NCBI GenBank assembly: GCA_951406725.2
Contig: OX597816.1
Location: 95,294,001 to 95,358,000, forward strand
Length of the DNA: 64,000 nt
Source: Octopus vulgaris
Lineage: Eukaryota
Reading direction: 5' to 3'
The position numbers and the translations under genes are program-made. A model generated the notes under the pieces. That model had not been told where the DNA came from and did not search any database. It worked only from the letters and a program-made list of their open reading frames with translations. Shown in pieces: positions 40 through 54,585 of this stretch. How positions within the stretch are numbered: position 1 is the first letter of the stretch; every line of letters begins with the position of its first letter.

Positions 40-50
40 GCACACACACA
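1..50. repeat. (CA)n microsatellite
   Basis: Direct dinucleotide repeat. Confidence 0.95.
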
Positions 51-1724
51 TCCATTAGGAGGTTTAAAAGTAAAACACCGGCGAAATTCAGAAAATCTGA
101 TGTAATGATTAGAACCAACCAACAATGTAGTGGCTGAGCTTAGTTAAGTTTCAGATTCTTAGATCACGTGTCTCGCATTTGGCACTCATAGATAATCAAT
201 CAAAGAAAACGATATGGATATTTCAGCTAATAAGACGAGACAACATCAAAGAAAGCCGAAACGACGAAAAGAACGTTTTTCTGCAATTAATGAGGACTCA
301 ATTTAAAGGCGTCTTTTGATGTCGTTCTCTCAACTTAGCTTCCTGCTCTCGTCTCTGTAGAGATTAACTTTCTATAGGATTTCACATTTGAAGCTCTTTT
401 ATCGCATTTATCGTTATATCTAAAATGATAGGACACTTGAGAGTTTCATTGATGTGAATATGTTACTATCTGTCCATCCAAGTCGATCAAATCAGCCAGC
501 TGTCTAAATACTTATATATAAGTCTATCTATAATTGATATCTCGGTAGCATGAACGCACACAGACACATTCTAGCAAACGTGCCTCCGCCTACACGTACA
601 TACATTCACGTAGGTACTCTCACCACGCCACATATATGCATGTATTCACACATATACAAGTTAAAGGGAAAAAGTATGCATGTATTTACACATATGCAAG
701 TTAAAGTGAAAATAGACGCATAACTGGATGCTTAATAACATTCGAAACAGAATCTCGACAACTATTGATATTGATTTTAATTTGTATTAACAAGTAAGAA
801 AATATTGCAGAACAAAGAGGGAAAAAATGTGGAATGAATACATCTTCAAGCCGTGCAACTTAGGTAAAACTCACAAAATTCGATAGCAAAGATATTGTAA
901 TGTCAAAAACATTTAACACATCATAGTAATTTAAAATAATAAATAGAATCATTAAAGGCAATCCTGCGATCAAATGAATCTCGAAGAATGCGTACGGAAT
1001 TAATAATGGTCAGTTTGAACATTTTCAGCTATTTATCACTAAACTATAAATAATTGCTGAAACATAAATATTGGAAATCGATCTGCAGTTGAAGAGGTTT
1101 GTTTTGAAGCGAATGGAACTGTTAGAAAGAGAAAGAATGCTAATTAGGGCAATAAAGTACTTTGGTTTTCATTTAAGACTAGAACAAGCTGCAGCTGAGT
1201 TAGTTGATTGAATAACAATTAGCTTGTTGGTCGGTGCCGAAAAAATATTCAAGATTTCCACAGTTCCAGTACTTATATTAGTATCATGATGTATCATGTT
1301 ATGTGTTCTTGGCTGCTGTTAACTTGCTAATTAACAAAACTATATCTGTCAAGCTGTTACAAAGTGCAATAGTTTACTGATTAATGGAAGAGTTCTGAAT
1401 TGTAAGCAGCGGCACCATGAAATTGCTGAGGTTTTCGTTCGGCTGAATTGAAAATAAGTTTTGCTCTCTATGTGAATATAATAGAAGAGATAGTGGATGG
1501 ACATTTCTCTTGTCATTGTAATTTATCGTGTATTGATAAAATCTCTAACCCTGCAGAAATATTAGGTCACCTCAATTAACTTTGAGCTGATTCAATCGTC
1601 TTTGAGCTGTAGGATGGCCCAAGGAGCTGGAATCTAGATATCAAGATACCTATACCACTATTCATATTTCAAGGGATACAATCAACACGTATTTATAGTG
1701 GCAGACGTCTGATGTAGTAGAGAA

Positions 1725-3325: not shown

Positions 3326-3634
3326 ATATATATATATAACCCAACCACACACAAAATCACGCACACACATACACACACATAGACACGAATGCAGTTATAT
3401 ACATACACATACATAGGCACTCAATCACAAAAGCAAACAACACATCACCATTCATATGACTTGCACCCTATCACCTTCCTATCCTTTGAACCCTTGAACT
3501 TTCTAGAATCTTCTACATTCAACCATTTTTGACGTCACTGCTTATAACTGAATATTTTAAAGAAACACTCATTATCGCTATGGGCTCCGTGTGGGCAGTC
3601 ATCTAAGAGTTTTTGTTCATCTTGATGCTGACAT

Positions 3635-3739
3635 AAGTTCCTTGTTTTTCCTGATGAGAAGGCGGCATAATGCACCCCTTATTCCTTCGAAATTAGGAAT
3701 ATGCAGCCTTCGAAACATATGTCGAGAATAAAGGAATTT
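3635..3739 (+). ncRNA. Type I hammerhead ribozyme motif, intact core (probable PLE pseudo-LTR)
   Basis: CTGATGA 3651-3657; stem II GAAGGC 3658-63 / GCCTTC 3706-11; GAAA 3712-15; palindromic stem III ACATATGT; GUC ending 3723; stem I 3635-3650 / 3724-3739 pairs 14 of 16 (with GU). Confidence 0.8.
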
Positions 3740-4122
3740 TGTTAAATCGTCGTTCAACTCCATTCTTTCATTTATATATATATATATATATATACCATTT
3801 TTCCTTTCCTCACGTGATCATGTTCCTTTTCCTTCAGTCTGCTGTGCAGTCCAGACGCATTCGTATCTGTCTCTCATCTTTCCACTTATCAAAGAATCTT
3901 CTTCCTGCGTTCGCTACCTTACCTCGTCTGAGCCCAACGGCCCTGCTTGTTTCTATTCGTTTCGTTTGGCTTGTTGTATGTCCTGTTCTTCTTACTACCT
4001 TTGATCCTCCGCAAATAACAAATTTTATTTTGGTTTGCAGTAGCAACTGCCTTCAACTGCCTTTGCTCGCAACTCAATAGCTGTCCGAACGGATAGAACC
4101 CACATCTTTTGTAAAGATCTTC

Positions 4123-4599: not shown

Positions 4600-5400
4600 C
4601 ATGCACACGGCTCCAACATTGAACCCCATACGTTAAGACCACAACCATAACCTAACCTGTCGTACTAACACTATCCAGATTACTACCACAACTTCCACCA
4701 CCTTTACAGACAGAATAATTAAAATCAACGATAGCAATAATAGTGATAATAGTATTAATAATAATAACTTGGACATTTCTACCCCATCTCTAACCTCTCC
4801 TTGGAAGTATTACCTCTTCTATTCTTGAAAATAACCCCCAATATACACCCACTTCTAGCTGCCGTCCTGGGTCCATCTGCCCCCCACAAACCCATTGTAG
4901 GAGATCTAATGTAATTTATAATTGCAGCGTCCTCAACACATTACACAATTCTACAGCTATATATAAAGGGTCAGCCATAAATTTAAACAACGATATACCA
5001 CTCATCTCAATTCTTTTAGATACTAGAAACACAGTAAATTCACAACACTAGCCAGTCACATACATCATCTCAAAAATAGAAATAGTCCCTACATTTTGTC
5101 AGGGTCCATAATAGACTCAGGTCTTCCAATCCAAGGTCAACGCTTAGTCTGTAAGCTACGCCTAAAAGATGTATTCCACATATTAAAGCACAACTCCTCG
5201 ACACTACTAAATAAATATAATGAAGCCCTAGGTACCTTCAAGTTTTACCACAAATCGAGATGTAACCTAAATAATCACCCAGCATATATCCACAACATCC
5301 CTTAGGTATTCCCCAACAATCCTTCTTAACTTTCCCTTATCTCCATTTTAATGTTTAATCCTTAATTCTTTAACTCCCCTTTCTTACTTTAAGGATGTTA
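4600..5400 (+). mobile_element. Penelope-like element 3' fragment, GIY-YIG endonuclease pseudogene
   Basis: From about 4854: SSCRPGSICPPQTHCRRSNVIYNCSV..IYKGSAIN /frameshift/ KQRYTTHLNSFRY*KHSKFTTLASHIHHLK..IIDS..VCKLRLKD..LLNKYNE. Confidence 0.75.
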
Positions 5401-9865: not shown

Positions 9866-9901
9866 TGTGCGTGTGTATATGTATGTATATATACATATTT
9901 T

Positions 9902-10268
9902 AGTTACCGGTATGCAAGTCTATGTAGTGTATAGTATGAATATATAGTGTTAAATTCAAGCATCGTCACTCTCTTTCCAAATGCTGATGCATTTCACATG
10001 GAATTTTTAATCCTCCAAAGTCGTCCTCGTTTGTAAGTCAACCTACCTTATTTGGCTACAAATTTTGGTCCGAAAAATTTAAATTAACTTCTTAATTATA
10101 TTTTTGTAAGTCAAAACAAGGCAACTTGTAAAATAGAACAGATTTATGGTATTACCTATTATTCCAATATTTTGGAAATCGTTAAGGAAAAGTTATTAGC
10201 TAGCTTCTCTGTCCCGTAGTGTATGCATTTGAATGTGTCATTGTAGTAACTACTCGGCTGCGTGCAAC

Positions 10269-10322
<54 letters not shown>

Positions 10323-10677
10323 TACAATGTTACTACAATGACACATTCAAATGCATACACTACGGGACAGAGAAGCTAGCTAATAACTTTTCCTTAACGA
10401 TTTCCAAAATATTGGAATAATAGGTAATACCATAAATCTGTTCTATTTTACAAGTTGCCTTGTTTTGACTTACAAAAATATAATTAAGAAGTTAATTTAA
10501 ATTTTTCGGACCAAAATTTGTAGCCAAATAAGGTAGGTTGACTTACAAACGAGGACGACTTTGGAGGATTAAAAATTCCATGTGAAATGCATCAGCATTT
10601 GGAAAGAGAGTGACGATGCTTGAATTTAACACTATATATTCATACTATACACTACATCGACTTGCATACCGGTAACT
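9902..10677. repeat. 349-bp near-perfect inverted repeat around a (TA)n spacer
   Basis: 9902-10250 is the reverse complement of 10329-10677 with no indel; one mismatch seen (9921/10658). Confidence 0.95.
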
Positions 10678-11447
10678 GAAATCAGAGCTGCACAAGAAGT
10701 CATTTATTTATATTCTCCCGTATTGCAAGTCGACGTAGTTCAATTCAAGCATCGTCTCTATCCTCCTAAATATTGATGCGTTTCACAGGGAATATTTGAT
10801 CCTCAAAATTCGTCCTAGTTTCACTTTACTCTCGTTGTCCATTTTCTGTTTCCTTAGAAAAATACACAAACTTCACACTTTTTCTGTCTACTAGCATCTA
10901 AGGGAAAAATCAGTTACAACATGATTCGAAACAGCAACATTACAGATACTAATGCTACAAACTATCTCAGTATCCCATCCTGTATCTCATAAGATTTGGT
11001 AGGTCGACATCTGGATCAATAATTATTAAGTGGAGCTGAAATTACGAATAGATCCGCTTAAATAAAATAGAATTCAATAGGAATAAAATGCAAATAAAAT
11101 TACTCTACAAAGTCCATTCTAGGAAGTGCTTTTATTTCACTAAATCGTTAATTAATTTAACACCACAGTAAAGAAGGCTTACAGATTAGTTTTGTATGCA
11201 TATTCTTTGATTAATTGAATCTGAGACTTCCAACTATTTTTCATGTTTTTCTTAACCTTCTTTTTCGGATCGTCCAGGTTATTTGTGTAATCCCAGTTTT
11301 TTCTGATTCATGCTCTTCTTTACCGCCCACCAACATCACCGGTTCCCACTCCTACCACCAATTTTCTGTAAAAGTGACTTTGAGAAAAAAATAGATTTGT
11401 CTTTCAGAGTTCAACAATAGTTTCATTTTCTCCGGTTTTAAGAAATC

Positions 11448-24618: not shown

Positions 24619-24657
<39 letters not shown>

Positions 24658-24660
<3 letters not shown>

Positions 24661-27160
24661 GAGTATAGAAATTCGGGGTGAGTACTTGATAATTATAAGC
24701 ACCTGTGTATACCGTTTGGTGGTGTAGGTGGTGGAGTAAATTGATCAAAATAAAATAAAAACATGATGCGAAGGATTCAGCGGTACATATGTTTCGGGCC
24801 TTTATTAGACAGATTTATAACAATGCATAATGTATGTCTGTGGCCTTCTTCAGCCGCGCACAACAGCTTCCGCAAGGACATGTGTTACATCAAAAATTCT
24901 TGGTTGGGGATGCAAATCCTCTCATCCACGTACGACATAATGCGGCAGCAGCATAGAATTGAAGCGTCCATCTCTTTCTTCTCTCAATGTAGAATGAGGA
25001 AAATTGGATGTTGAGGTAATGTAAATAAATAAATACATATATATAGGTGAAGATGGAGGGGCGAGAGTTCGGGACGAGGGATAAAAAATGTATAAAAAGT
25101 GTAAGTATAGAATAATATAAAAATGTAGAGGATAAAGAGTTGTAAGGAGATGTAAAGGGGGTATAAAGAAATATAAAGAAATATAAATAAATGTAAAGGC
25201 ATAAGGTTATAAAGTAAAAATAGAAATAGAAATAAAAATAAATAGAAATAAAAGTAAAAAAATCTGATAAAACCATGATAAAAGCGTAAAAGAATGTAAA
25301 GATAAGGGATGTATAGAGGTTACGGACCAAGCATGGTGGTCAGGAGATTGATAAAATTTAGTTGTAGAATTGTCAGTAAATCAACAGTAAATCAACAGTT
25401 TCGTCTGGGGACTTAATGCGTTGTAAATCAGAGCTGATGAGCATTTAATCTGGTTCCTTGAATTAAATGGACTTCTGGTACATACATATCATCATGGATA
25501 CATACACCCACATACACGCGTACATATACGCCTCCAAGCATATAAGCATACACACGCACTCGCGTTTAAACACGTCCATAAACACACACGCACCCACACG
25601 CACGCGCGTACACACACATACATACAACAGAATATCCGCATATATACACGGACATTACGCGCGTACACGCTCACATGTATATACGCGCGCCCATCACTAC
25701 ATACACACACGTATATGCCCACGCCTCTAGGTCCGGGTATAAGATATTAAAGGATGTGTATAAGAACGTAAGTAAAGAATCCCGTACTCATGTCAATACG
25801 CGCACGCACACACGGCTGTGTGTCCGTATGTGCGTGCACATATACACCCATACACACACACACAGAGACACACGCGCACATGGGTATAGCTATAAGATAT
25901 CGAAGTATGCATGTACATATATGCGCGTGCATATGTATGTATGCGTATACACACGTACGCGGACGCTCGTATATTCAAAAGATGGATTCATAGGTAAGTA
26001 AATAAACATATATAGAGGTGTAAAGCGATAAGTTAGGGGTAAGAATGAGGGTAAGGGTAAAGATTAGAAATAAAAAATACAGTATAAAATAAGAAATACA
26101 ATGTAATAGTTAGAAATGAAGTATAAGAATTATAAAAATTATAAGAGTTAAGGTAAGGGATGAAAATGAAAATGAGAATAAATGGAAGTAGAATAAAAGT
26201 AAAAATAAAATTAAAAATAAAAATAAATGGAAGTAGGATAAAAGTAAAAATAAAAATAAAAATAAAAATAAAATAAAATAAGATAAAAATATAATTTTGT
26301 AAAGTTTAACATGAGATGGAGGTGGTTGAAAGTTAGAGGTGTGTGTTAAACGTAGGGGCGGGCGGGGGGAACTGAAGATTGGAAGGGTGGGAAGTGGAGT
26401 TTGGCGGTGTGCGTTCAACATCTGAGTTAGAAATGTGAAAGGGTATAGATATAGGGAATTAAAGAGACTACATAGGGAGGATATGGGTGTAGGAGAAGAA
26501 ATATTTGGGGAAAAGAAGTCATATATGGGAGACAAAATTTGTATATATAGGGGGAAAATACAGGGAACCGTATATGCACATACACACACCCACACACACA
26601 CACACACACGCACATGTGTATATATATGTATATGTACACATACGTACACGTATGTGCACATACATACGCACACACACACACACACACATACACACGCACA
26701 TATAGGAAAGCGGGGTGTGCTGGAGCCGACAGGTTGCACCGGGTGGGAGGAAATTGCATGGGGGAGTTGGTATAAGACCTAAGCATTGTAGTATTTGAAA
26801 GTATTAATAAGTTTATGTATACAGGATGGTTTGAACTCTGACCTTTTGTTAATAAGATTGTGTTTGTCTTTGAATTTCAGGATGTTCAGGAGTTCTACAC
26901 AGCATAGTTGGCATCCTGCTCTATTATTTAAATAAGGTGCAGCTGATCCGATGATGGACCATCTGAGTTTGAAGCCTATGCATTTGTCTTTTAATTCCCA
27001 AATTCTTTTAGAGAGGGAGGTGCTGTTAGCCTTATGTCTGTGTCTCAGCGAGGACCGGTGGTTGTAGTATCTGGATTTCCAGGAGGTTGAGCAACCAATA
27101 ATATATATATATGATGTACAAGAAGGATATATATATATATATGATGTACAAGAAGGATAG
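24658..27160 (-). mobile_element. Penelope-like element 3' portion: GIY-YIG C-terminus, long low-complexity 3' region, hammerhead-bearing end
   Basis: YIIGCSTSWKSRYYNHRSSL..STSLSKRIWELK..WSII..CQLC..E..LINKRSEFKPSCIHK (26779-27100), followed on the same strand by the hammerhead at 24780-24857. Continuity of the intervening 2 kb is inferred. Confidence 0.7.
24780..24857 (-). ncRNA. Type I hammerhead ribozyme motif, intact core
   Basis: Minus strand: gcgg CTGAAGA aGGCC..(ACAGA/TCTGT)..GGCCc GAAA CATATG TA ccgc; stem I 4 bp, stem III palindrome ACATATGT, GUA triplet. Confidence 0.75.
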
Positions 27161-31493: not shown

Positions 31494-32512
31494 GTTTTTT
31501 TTCTTTCTTTCTTCAAATTTTCTTCCATTTCTCGCCAAGTGTTTTCCATGCACATAGGGCAGAGAAGTTCATTGTATGCATTCCCAGATTACACACGCAA
31601 ATTCACACGCAAATATGTATTTAAAAAAATAAAAATAAATAAATTCATGAATGGATGTTGTTTTCATAGCGATAATACTCTTCTCAGTACATGAGCCGTT
31701 CCAGTTAAAACGATTTTTTGCACTTCCTGTAGGGATGGTAAGCCTGGTATTATTTTCAAATAGATTTCAGTATCTTTTTTTATCATTTCTAGAGATCCTA
31801 CAATCACTGGTACTGTAGTCGCCTTGAGATGCCACATTTTTTCAATTACTATATTTACTGATCTTGACGAATTCTTTCGCTGCTATATTGTGATCGCAAG
31901 GAATACTCATGTCAGTTAATAAACACATCCTTTTTGTCTGATCTTTGATAATAATATCCGTTTATTAGCTTTTATAGTGTTGCCGGTATGTACGGGGAAG
32001 TCCCAGAGAATCGACACATTTTCTCCCTCAGTCACAGCTTCAGGATGGTGTTTATACCATTTGTCAGCGGTTTTGATTTTATAATGCCGACATAATGTCC
32101 AGTGTAAATACTGGCCGATTCTGTCATGTCTTGCTTTATATTCTACAGGTGCTAAGACTCTACACCCTGAGATTAGGTGGTCTATAGTTTTAATCTCATC
32201 GTTACAGAATCGGCATTTTGCGTCAGCTCCATTTTTTTTTTATCACATTGGTTTGGTAGTTCCGGGTTAATAAGCTTTGGCCTTGAGCAGCTAATATGAA
32301 AACTTCACTCTCTACTTTTAGCCCTGAGCTTCGTAACCATCGATGCGTGAGTTTCTGGTCAACATCAGCTTGTGTGCTACAGGCCACATATTTGACATGC
32401 GGAGATTTCTGTTCCCATCTGCAAGCTAATTTTTCATGTGTTTTTGTCTTTGCAATTAATTTTATTTTCTCTGCAGCAGCAGTTGGCGCATTTCCTTCAA
32501 CCTGATCAATCT
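31493..32512 (-). mobile_element. R4/Dong-like LINE, 5'-truncated, with zinc knuckle and RLE endonuclease (frameshifted)
   Basis: CRFC..ETIDHLISGC..YKARHDRIGQYLHW..ILWDFPVHT..IKANK(P)DIII..CLLTDMSIP..QEVQKIVLTGTAHVLRRVLSL*; flanked by (ATT)n arrays at 31437-31492 and 32513-32735. Confidence 0.85.
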
Positions 32513-32513
32513 G

Positions 32514-32578
<65 letters not shown>

Positions 32579-32590
32579 TGTTATTATTAC

Positions 32591-32628
<38 letters not shown>

Positions 32629-52836: not shown

Positions 52837-54267
52837 TGTGTGTGTATGTGTGTGTGCGTACATTGGAATGTATATATACAGTGTTTCTTTCTATGCATTA
52901 TGTAAGTAATATTTGTACCCTTTCCTCTATGTGTAAATAAAAGCTTATGTGTGAATGCATGCGTATATATTGGTGAGTCTGGCTGCCTGCCTTCCTGTGT
53001 TTGTGCGTGAATATCTGTGGCTATGCTGACATTCTGGTTGCATAACATTCACTTATGTTTTATATATATATTATATTTGTCTGCATATCTATATGTATAT
53101 AATTATCTGCATATGAACCGGCCTCTAGTAAATTTGCATGCTTGCATGTTGGTAAAAATATACTATTAAGGGTTTCAGTAAATCGGATAAATCAATTTGC
53201 ATAAATAATGCATTCTGTCATTCTATACCATGTTTCGAAGGCATTTACGGAATATAACCAGTTCCAAATAAGCTCTCTGTATGTATTTAAACTAATGTGG
53301 CTTATTCCTATGTTTCCGTCTCCGAATAGATTGCACAAAAGGCAAGTTGTTTACATCTGACCTTTGAATGATTTACACACGAGATGCTTAACAAAAATGT
53401 ATAAATATATTCTGTAGAACATTAGAATACCAAACTAAAACACTATTAATGCGTCAGTTAATTAATAATCGAATTAACTGCCAAGAATTTATATAATCGG
53501 TTTATTTACATCATTAGATACATAAAAATACACATACATACACAAATACGTACATACATATATATACATATATACATACATACCTGCATACATGCGAACG
53601 TACATACATATACACATACATATACACATACATATACACATACATACATACATACATACATACATACATACATACATACATACATACATACAGTGTGTAT
53701 ATATGTATACACCGAACACACATTTATTTGGCTGCATATGTATTGTAGGGATGAGTCAATAGAATCTCATTTGTAAATAATGACTACAAAAACGATATGT
53801 AACAATGGACACATGTGTAAAATAATATTCTAATCATTTTCAAGGGGTTTATGGTTAATTATGGAGCTTGAAGGTTAGAAAACAATGAAAATATTAGTAA
53901 ATAGAGAAAGACAAATACTGCGAATCAATCAATAATAATTAAATGGTAACTATAATTTGAAGAAAGTATTACGTGCAGTTCTTCCATAGAAATTTATCTA
54001 ATTCTATTCATTCGAGTGTATAATTAAAATCTGCCAGAAATTGTTATTATACGTGAATTATATTTGTATGTATCTGTGTACATATATTTAAATATGTGCA
54101 TATTTGTATATGTGTATATCTATCTACCAATATATATATATATATATACCGGAATAAACAAATAAATGCGAAACAAGGTGGAAAAAAGAATACTCAAATA
54201 CAAGAGGTAGAGTAATATGCTTTCTTTAAAAGCAGCAGAAATATAACAAAAGCTATTACTGTATCTT

Positions 54268-54585
54268 TTCCTAAGAATTGCAATTGCAAAGATGAGACCT
54301 CCTGTCTGTTGGAAGGAAAATGTCTGGAGAAAGGAATTGTGTATAGAGCCAAAGTGCAAATAGGAAGCTCACTTGAATATAGAACTTACACAGCGGCTTC
54401 TGAAAATTCTTTCAAGACCCGATTTTATTCTCATAGAAAGTCCTCCCAATATTCCGAAAACAGGACAAAGACCAGCCTGGCAAAATATGTCTGGAAATTA
54501 AAAGAAAATGAAACCCGGTTTTTCAACGTGATATGGAGAATTTTAGATAAAACATCACCTTACAGGCACGGTGCACATAAAAGAA
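54268..54585 (+). mobile_element. Penelope-like GIY-YIG endonuclease fragment
   Basis: KNCNCKDETSCLLEGKCLEKGIVYRAKV..YTAASENSFKTRFYSHRKS..TSLAKYVWKLKE..IWRILDK..PY. Confidence 0.85.

What the first reader, a model, noticed from the sequence alone, without database searches (positions are those of the whole stretch)
24780..24857. Intact hammerhead downstream of a PLE GIY-YIG ORF on the same strand
Seen: full core, GC-rich 4-bp stem I, extended stem II (GGCC/GGCC plus ACAGA/TCTGT), predicted cut between 24784 and 24783. The stem III palindrome ACATATGT is identical to that of the otherwise unrelated 3651 motif. Inference: the 3' pseudo-LTR ribozyme of the element whose ORF ends at 26779. Shared palindromes could allow cross-family dimer cleavage.
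Basis: partly seen in the sequence, partly recalled or inferred. Interest (0 to 1): 0.7.

Follow-up and report, generated by a model that had tools for sequence, protein, structure and literature searches.

The report
Hammerhead of a Hydra-clade Penelope retrotransposon
This is a hammerhead (self-cutting RNA) motif in the terminal repeat of a young Penelope-like jumping gene of a known type with about 1,500 genomic copies; it likely cuts weakly and only when paired with a copy of its own lineage, and the proposed cutting with the unrelated motif nearby is predicted to fail because one of the two helices that must form between partners does not match.

Summary
The motif is real: a type I hammerhead (24857-24780, minus), cut predicted at 24784/24783. 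It belongs to the upstream ORF's element: 37 of 38 copies chosen by the ORF end carry it about 2 kb downstream on the same strand, and full copies carry it also 197 nt before an 842-codon RT-endonuclease frame with Hydra-clade motifs. The window copy is 5'-truncated (106 endonuclease codons). Cross-family cleavage with the 3651 motif is not supported: in a double hammerhead stem I also forms between partners, and the two stems I give 0 contiguous pairs either way. The 3651 motif belongs to another Hydra-type family, and several lineages share the palindrome. All 37 copies run past the cut site, so insertion templates were mostly uncut; 2-3 of about 770 begin exactly at it (weak hint of activity). 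A likely Inr/DPE promoter lies 212 nt upstream. The scan noted such long-armed Hydra hammerheads before on other DNA. Known kind, new family; cleavage untested.

The parts
24780..24857 (-). Type I hammerhead ribozyme motif in the 3' pseudo-LTR; predicted cut 24784/24783 (GUA)
   Evidence: 1,563 genomic matches to a two-motif pattern, control 0
24854..24857 (-). Stem I 5' strand (pairs with 24783-24780); lineage-specific, predicted to decide dimer partner
24796..24846 (-). 51-nt stem II arm; opens with an A.C mismatch (A24846/C24796), then GGCC/GGCC with a compensatory C-G/U-A change in sister subfamilies
24785..24792 (-). Palindromic stem III/loop 3: 2 bp plus tetraloop as monomer, 8-bp duplex (-7.0 kcal/mol) as dimer
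24965..24997 (-). Likely internal promoter: Inr-like hexamer 24997-24992 (A at 24995) and DPE-like pentamer 24969-24965; hot spot of 5' ends of copies
   Evidence: Inr consensus recalled; inference, no RNA 5' ends seen
24655..24738 (-). AC-rich 'tail' between the two preferred 3' ends (cut +43..50 and cut +118..128), with a conserved predicted hairpin; the window copy ends at +128
24620..24654 (.). (TA)n target at the 3' junction
   Evidence: 73 of 80 deduplicated ends followed by TA repeats
24998..26778 (-). Long microsatellite-rich 3' untranslated part of the element, shared with other copies (90-99% identity)
26779..27100 (-). Remnant of the ORF: last 106 codons of the endonuclease and stop codon; 5' truncation at 27100 against a (TA)n tract
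3646..3728 (+). Comparison motif: type I hammerhead of a second Hydra-type PLE family (element piece about 3339-3794), same palindrome, different stem I, paired G10.1-C11.1

Best explanation
The motif is the hammerhead in the pseudo-LTR of a young, 5'-truncated copy of a Hydra-clade Penelope-like retrotransposon, and it likely cuts weakly, as a homodimer with a copy of its own lineage rather than with the 3651 family. Shown: a 4.68-kb unit (RT-endonuclease ORF, about 1.9 kb 3' region, hammerhead, tail) inserted in (TA)n, with the hammerhead both behind the ORF and, in tandem copies, 197 nt before its ATG. Inferred cycle: transcription starts at an Inr/DPE-like promoter 212 nt upstream of the cut site; the element's protein nicks (TA)n and starts reverse transcription inside the RNA at about +45 or +121 past the cut site, mostly on uncut RNA; starts in the first repeat or early stops give the many short copies. 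The ribozyme is likely slowed by a 2-bp stem III, the mismatch at 10.1/11.1 and a competing upstream hairpin, and would need a second copy (8-bp palindromic duplex plus exchanged stem I) and probably protein help. When it cuts in the 5' repeat it would remove the capped 212-nt leader: a processing or damping step, not a requirement for insertion.
For: Linkage 37 of 38 (the miss, L063, stops matching at 25234). 5' repeat with hammerhead before the ORF in L076 and 7 of 30 ORF-start loci; tandem spacing 4,684 nt. ORF fold closest to telomerase RT (Z 17.6, rmsd 4.2, 309 aligned); DKT, RW, CxCX5C, CxxC, CxH, no CCHH as in the Hydra clade (PMC8557442 section 11). Core and stems I and III are kept in subfamilies only 70-79% identical around them, with one compensatory pair. 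3' ends 21 short and 16 long of 37, none at or before the cut; 11 of 14 inverted insertions have one short and one long end, matching the tail and two internal RT starts in PMC11167929 and PMC8557442. 5' ends: 6 of 21 non-edge ends (4 insertions) fall in 24991-25002 in a genome-order sample; Inr- and DPE-like motifs keep their spacing in sister subfamilies. PLE hammerheads are weak and dimeric (PMC4209133), protein-assisted and dispensable for insertion in vitro (PMC11167929). L251 and L252 start exactly at the cut with a different base before it, L302 ambiguously.
Against: No cleavage was measured. In 340 nt of context stem I has pairing probability 0.001. A.C and A.A at 10.1/11.1 are not the mismatch reported as best tolerated (U.U; PMC3088659). 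Covariation is thin: 1 of 14 pairs changes on both sides, and stem I never does. Cut-site starts are few: 3 against about 0.5 expected per position, from a background of only 4 events, post hoc; the sister subfamily gave 1 ambiguous case and 4 point mutations in 5; 0 of 30 ORF-start loci begin at the cut (nearest -5). The promoter is inferred from DNA ends, and the DPE-like motif sits one base off the recalled spacing. The endonuclease fold was not confirmed by structure search.
Confidence: 0.7

Rival explanations
1. The motif no longer cuts: it is kept as a folded or protein-binding part of the pseudo-LTR (or by descent), and the element spreads without ribozyme activity.
For: Mismatch at 10.1/11.1 in 18 of 19 aligned copies; stem I sequestered in predicted context; all 37 linked copies span the cut; hammerhead mutants still insert in vitro in PAc (PMC11167929).
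Against: All catalytic bases, H17 and both short stems are kept across subfamilies 70-79% identical in the flanks; 2-3 copies begin exactly at the cut; a natural hammerhead with U.U at the base of helix II still cleaves, better as a dimer (PMC7229834).
Confidence: 0.18
2. The motif cuts efficiently at both repeats and releases unit-length RNA that is circularised and copied (model proposed in PMC4209133); copies span the cut because the circle re-forms it.
For: Tandem copies 4,684 nt apart; copies extend across the cut; model in PMC4209133.
Against: 5' ends pile up at a promoter-like site 212 nt upstream of the cut, as expected for linear uncut transcripts, not circles; weak predicted fold; no reads ending at the cut were found for PAc.
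Confidence: 0.08
3. One reading: RNAs of this family and of the 3651 family pair through the shared palindrome and cut each other.
For: The palindromes are identical and form the same 8-bp duplex (-7.0 kcal/mol); both families are high-copy.
Against: Stem I between families: 0 contiguous pairs either way, duplex energies +1.1 and +3.3 kcal/mol against -5.0 for the homodimer; all cross-lineage cells between these two lineages are 0 in a 14-motif matrix. A mixed pair would be inactive or inhibitory.
Confidence: 0.04

Closest known systems
Hydra clade of C-terminal EN+ Penelope-like elements and their hammerheads, incl. Hydra-1_Obim (Craig et al. 2021, PMC8557442; seen: passages, section 11, supplement part 2 of 59 and search hits)
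   Same: RT then endonuclease; DKT, RW, CxCX5C, CxxC and CxH motifs, no CCHH; (TA)n target; type I hammerhead in the terminal repeat with near-palindromic stem III; mismatch at 10.1/11.1 (U.U or U.C in 15 of 25 families of File S2, my count)
   Different: A different family from Hydra-1_Obim (other hammerhead and N-terminus); unit 4.7 kb against mostly under 3 kb; stem II arm 51 nt; mismatch is A.C or A.A; tail about 75 nt against 30-40 bp
Minimal and small-helix-III hammerheads of metazoan PLEs (Cervera and de la Pena 2014, PMC4209133; seen: parts 1-3 of 4)
   Same: Type I, 4-bp helix I, palindromic helix III, an A after A9, predicted dimer, location in both repeats
   Different: There the extra base is one-sided and G10.1-C11.1 stacks on the core; here an unpaired C or A also precedes G12
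PAc Poseidon element of Anolis (Frangieh et al. 2024, PMC11167929; seen: parts 1-2 of 4)
   Same: Two preferred 3' ends past the hammerhead bounding an AC-rich tail; AT-rich target; copies made from uncut RNA
   Different: Other clade; in PAc the ORF starts inside the hammerhead and the RT starts lie in the ORF, here all lie upstream of the ATG
Penelope of Drosophila virilis promoter (Schostak et al. 2008, PMC2377424; seen: 3 passages)
   Same: TATA-less internal promoter with Inr and an RGACG-type DPE in the terminal repeat
   Different: No intron was found here (no joints, contigs only); promoter inferred, not assayed

Membership tests
Type I hammerhead ribozyme | Core C3 U4 G5 A6 N7 G8 A9, G12 A13 A14, A15.1-U16.1, H17 | tested here: met
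   columns invariant or nearly so in 19 aligned copies
Type I hammerhead ribozyme | Three helices, helix I open-ended | tested here: met
   96%, 81% (mismatch column included) and 100% of cells paired
Type I hammerhead ribozyme | Base pair 10.1-11.1 next to the core | tested here: not met
   A.C in 76 of 76 family copies scored (5 more skipped for indels); in 30 sister copies A.A 24, A.C 5, A.U 1. Natural exceptions are published, so this marks a variant, not a non-member
Type I hammerhead ribozyme | Self-cleavage after H17 | not testable with these tools
   only a weak genomic hint
EN+ Penelope-like element | Single ORF with telomerase-like RT | tested here: met
   842-codon frame, pLDDT 85, top structural hits telomerases; Pfam gave no RT hit for P0001
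EN+ Penelope-like element | C-terminal GIY-YIG endonuclease | tested here: inconclusive
   VIY...YIG, R, H, E, N present and matching by eye the Hydra EN alignment; no Pfam or fold hit for the domain
EN+ Penelope-like element | Pseudo-LTRs from tandem copies, inverted 5'-truncated partners, tail at one end | tested here: met
Hydra clade | DKT, RWK-type, CxCX5C, CxxC and CxH motifs; CCHH absent | tested here: met
   DKT 132, RWA 45 (K not kept), CNCRCASEC 702, CQLC 799, CIH 829; one Cys only between VIY and YIG
Hydra clade | Insertion into (TA)n | tested here: met
   73 of 80 deduplicated 3' ends
Hydra clade | RT phylogeny places it in the clade | not tested
   reference sequences exist only in the paper's supplement and were compared by eye
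Non-LTR retrozyme | Short non-coding tandem repeats each with a hammerhead | tested here: not met
   unit is 4.68 kb and coding

The most novel reading that the evidence does not exclude
A natural hammerhead lineage with A.C or A.A at 10.1/11.1 (an extra base on both sides of the core) is active in vivo as a protein-assisted homodimer that clips the capped leader off the element's mRNA; many families share one stem III palindrome while stem I acts as a family password, so RNAs of different families would trap and inhibit each other instead of cutting.
Probability: 0.15. Interest if true: 0.55.

Novelty: new member of a known kind. Interest (0 to 1): 0.27.

Why it matters
Hammerheads in PLE repeats, dimer action and the Hydra clade (including an octopus member) are published, so the finding itself is ordinary. 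Its value is as a well-mapped test case for the open question of what PLE hammerheads do: a very young family with intact 842-codon copies, a mapped likely promoter, two likely RT start sites and a cut site between them, plus a natural core mismatch. The stem I analysis also gives a simple rule for judging any claimed cross-family dimer.

Tried and rejected
Chance match: rejected (control 0). Rfam: no hammerhead hit. Pfam and PDB sequence search of the full protein: nothing useful (1 weak RVT_1 hit among 8 homologues). Single-sequence model of the window's endonuclease remnant: pLDDT 47, not used. Fold searches report only the RT part, so the endonuclease fold is neither shown nor excluded; the Atlas could not read the sequence. 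Register with G10.1-C11.1 and a bulged C: possible for the window family but rejected as the general reading, since 24 of 30 sister copies have A before G12 and its pairing probability is 0.003 against 0.38. Upstream hairpin as a conserved switch: not evident in sister subfamilies by eye. Enrichment of ORF-bearing copies starting at the cut: 0 of 30 loci. Expression: no RNA holder listed; four runs guessed as RNA, contigs only, cover the repeat but cannot show starts, ends or strand, and show no joints. One search used a mis-registered structure and the substitution table an offset error; both were redone. One search's output was cut in the middle; end counts come. The L001-L030 set is biased by its query and was not used for the end distributions. 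Papers not held: Lunse et al. 2017 (known only through passages of the review PMC6765202) and a 1996 selection study on an extra base before GAA (recalled only). Searches for A.C/A.A at 10.1/11.1, heterodimers, or octopus hammerheads showed no such report in the listings, but the unseen papers and supplements may hold one.

Full report
Observation. A descriptor finds 3 such motifs in the window (this one, 3646-3728 and 18854-18775) against 0.03 on average in 200 shuffles. Rfam does not detect it. Folded alone, the 78-mer takes the hammerhead shape, but no more stably than shuffles (z 0.28).

The element. A 291-nt query gave 1,550 candidates in the genome; the 40 scored were 99-100% identical. 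A two-motif pattern counts 1,563 matches, control 0. To test linkage without bias I selected copies by the ORF end, fetched 38 of the 40 as 10-kb stretches (two of them in one stretch) and found the hammerhead on the same strand about 2 kb downstream in 37 of 38 stretches. L076 holds a full 842-codon frame (836 from the first Met) with a second hammerhead whose cut lies 197 nt before the ATG; tandem copies are 4,684 nt apart. The window copy is cut off at 27100 and keeps 106 endonuclease codons. The predicted fold is closest to telomerase RT. The protein has DKT, RW, CxCX5C, CxxC and CxH and lacks CCHH, the marks of the Hydra clade in PMC8557442 section 11; its C-terminus matches the paper's Hydra endonuclease alignment by eye. 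It is a different family from Hydra-1_Obim. The host is likely an octopod (inference: 2.8 Gb genome, best named relative from Argonauta at 34%).

The ribozyme. Sister subfamilies (458 pattern matches, control 0) are 70-79% identical in the flanks yet keep the core, stem I and the palindrome. In 19 aligned copies 91% of cells pair, one stem II pair changes on both sides, and the 10.1/11.1 column is unpaired in 18. It is A.C in 76 of 76 family copies scored and A.A in 24 of 30 sister copies, so the mismatch is fixed and not decay. This is a variant with precedent: 15 of 25 Hydra families in File S2 show U.U or U.C there (my count); U.U is reported as the best-tolerated mismatch (PMC3088659 passages) and an axolotl U.U hammerhead cleaves, better as a dimer (PMC7229834 passages). 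Stem III has 2 bp as a monomer and 8 bp as a dimer; in 340 nt of context stem I is predicted to be sequestered by an upstream hairpin (probability 0.001). PLE hammerheads are described as weak and dimeric (PMC4209133; review PMC6765202) and, in PAc, protein-assisted and dispensable for insertion (PMC11167929).

Cross-family dimers. In a double hammerhead one molecule gives the two core strands and the partner gives U16.1, H17 and the strand 3' of the cut, so stem I forms between molecules (topology, my derivation). For this motif and the 3651 motif stem I has 0 contiguous pairs in both directions, with duplex energies of +1.1 and +3.3 kcal/mol against -5.0 for the homodimer. In a matrix of 14 motifs that carry the palindrome (12 of the 30 loci had a stem I of 4 bp or more, plus the two window motifs) pairing is 0 between these two lineages and mostly 4-6 within them. 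The palindrome occurs in at least three lineages (296 pattern matches with spacers too short for the two main families, control 5), and other palindromes occur in other families. The 3651 motif belongs to another Hydra-type family: 2,617 candidates, a same-strand endonuclease upstream in 5 of 30 loci, 37-43% identical to this one. Shared palindromes therefore reflect descent or a small sequence space; only sister subfamilies could cut each other.

Ends of copies. All 37 linked copies run past the cut: 21 end at +32 to +50 and 16 at +118 to +128; 11 of 14 inverted insertions have one short and one long end; 73 of 80 ends abut TA repeats. Sister copies end at the same two places, and a hairpin before the long end is conserved (lead from earlier notes). 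This matches the tail and the two internal RT starts of PAc. 5' ends cluster at 24991-25002: 6 of 21 non-edge ends, from 4 insertions, in a genome-order sample. The cluster centres on an Inr-like hexamer (consensus recalled) with an RGACG-type DPE 28 nt on, both kept in sister subfamilies and resembling the D. virilis Penelope promoter (PMC2377424 passages). Such copies span the cut, so their templates were uncut. Of 772 copies with the 16-mer after the cut, 768 have A17 before it; of the 4 others, 2 begin exactly at the cut and 2 are point mutants; a TA-junction search adds one ambiguous start among 6 loci. Expected is about 0.5 per position from only 4 background events (p about 0.02 for 3, 0.06 for 2; post hoc). 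The sister subfamily gave 1 ambiguous case in 5, and 0 of 30 ORF-start loci begin at the cut. This is a weak hint of cleavage in vivo.

Verdict. The observation and the link to the ORF hold; the cross-family idea does not. The motif is a new member of a known kind with a modest core variant. Earlier notes of this scan describe long-armed Hydra hammerheads in this and other genomes, one perhaps the same family; a look-up by sequence found nothing. Cleavage, promoter and RT starts remain inferred. Lunse et al. 2017 and the supplements of PMC4209133 were not seen and may bear on the novelty of the mismatch.

Noticed in passing
window 18854-18775 (-): A third type I hammerhead (4-bp stem I, paired 10.1/11.1, near-palindromic 9-nt stem III), not cross-compatible with the other two.
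   Followed up: partly
window 4860-5251 (+) and 54252-54563 (+): Two more Hydra-type endonuclease remnants, 31-33% identical to P0001 over about 105 aa.
   Followed up: no
window 9897-10682: Inverted repeat with 354-nt arms, 99% complementary, 78-nt spacer; may be an inverted PLE-type insertion, no hammerhead found by my descriptor.
   Followed up: no
window 31916-32627 (-): Broken frames resembling a non-LTR retrotransposon C-terminus (weak zf-RVT hit, E 0.02; likeness otherwise recalled).
   Followed up: no
L188 (G000:C4:23558103-23561212): Tandem and inverted 245-nt units running from just before the cut site (-5) to +240, joined by a short microhomology: a retrozyme-like array derived from this family.
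   Followed up: no
L171, L172, L173: Three ORF-bearing copies share the same 5' end at cut +161 with similar upstream sequence; probably one event copied by duplication.
   Followed up: no
P0001 residues 494-550 and 643-697: Two low-confidence polar insertions make the protein about 130 aa longer than most relatives.
   Followed up: no
L088 6570 (+): One inverted copy ends 1 nt before the predicted cut, at a junction with microhomology to the target.
   Followed up: partly
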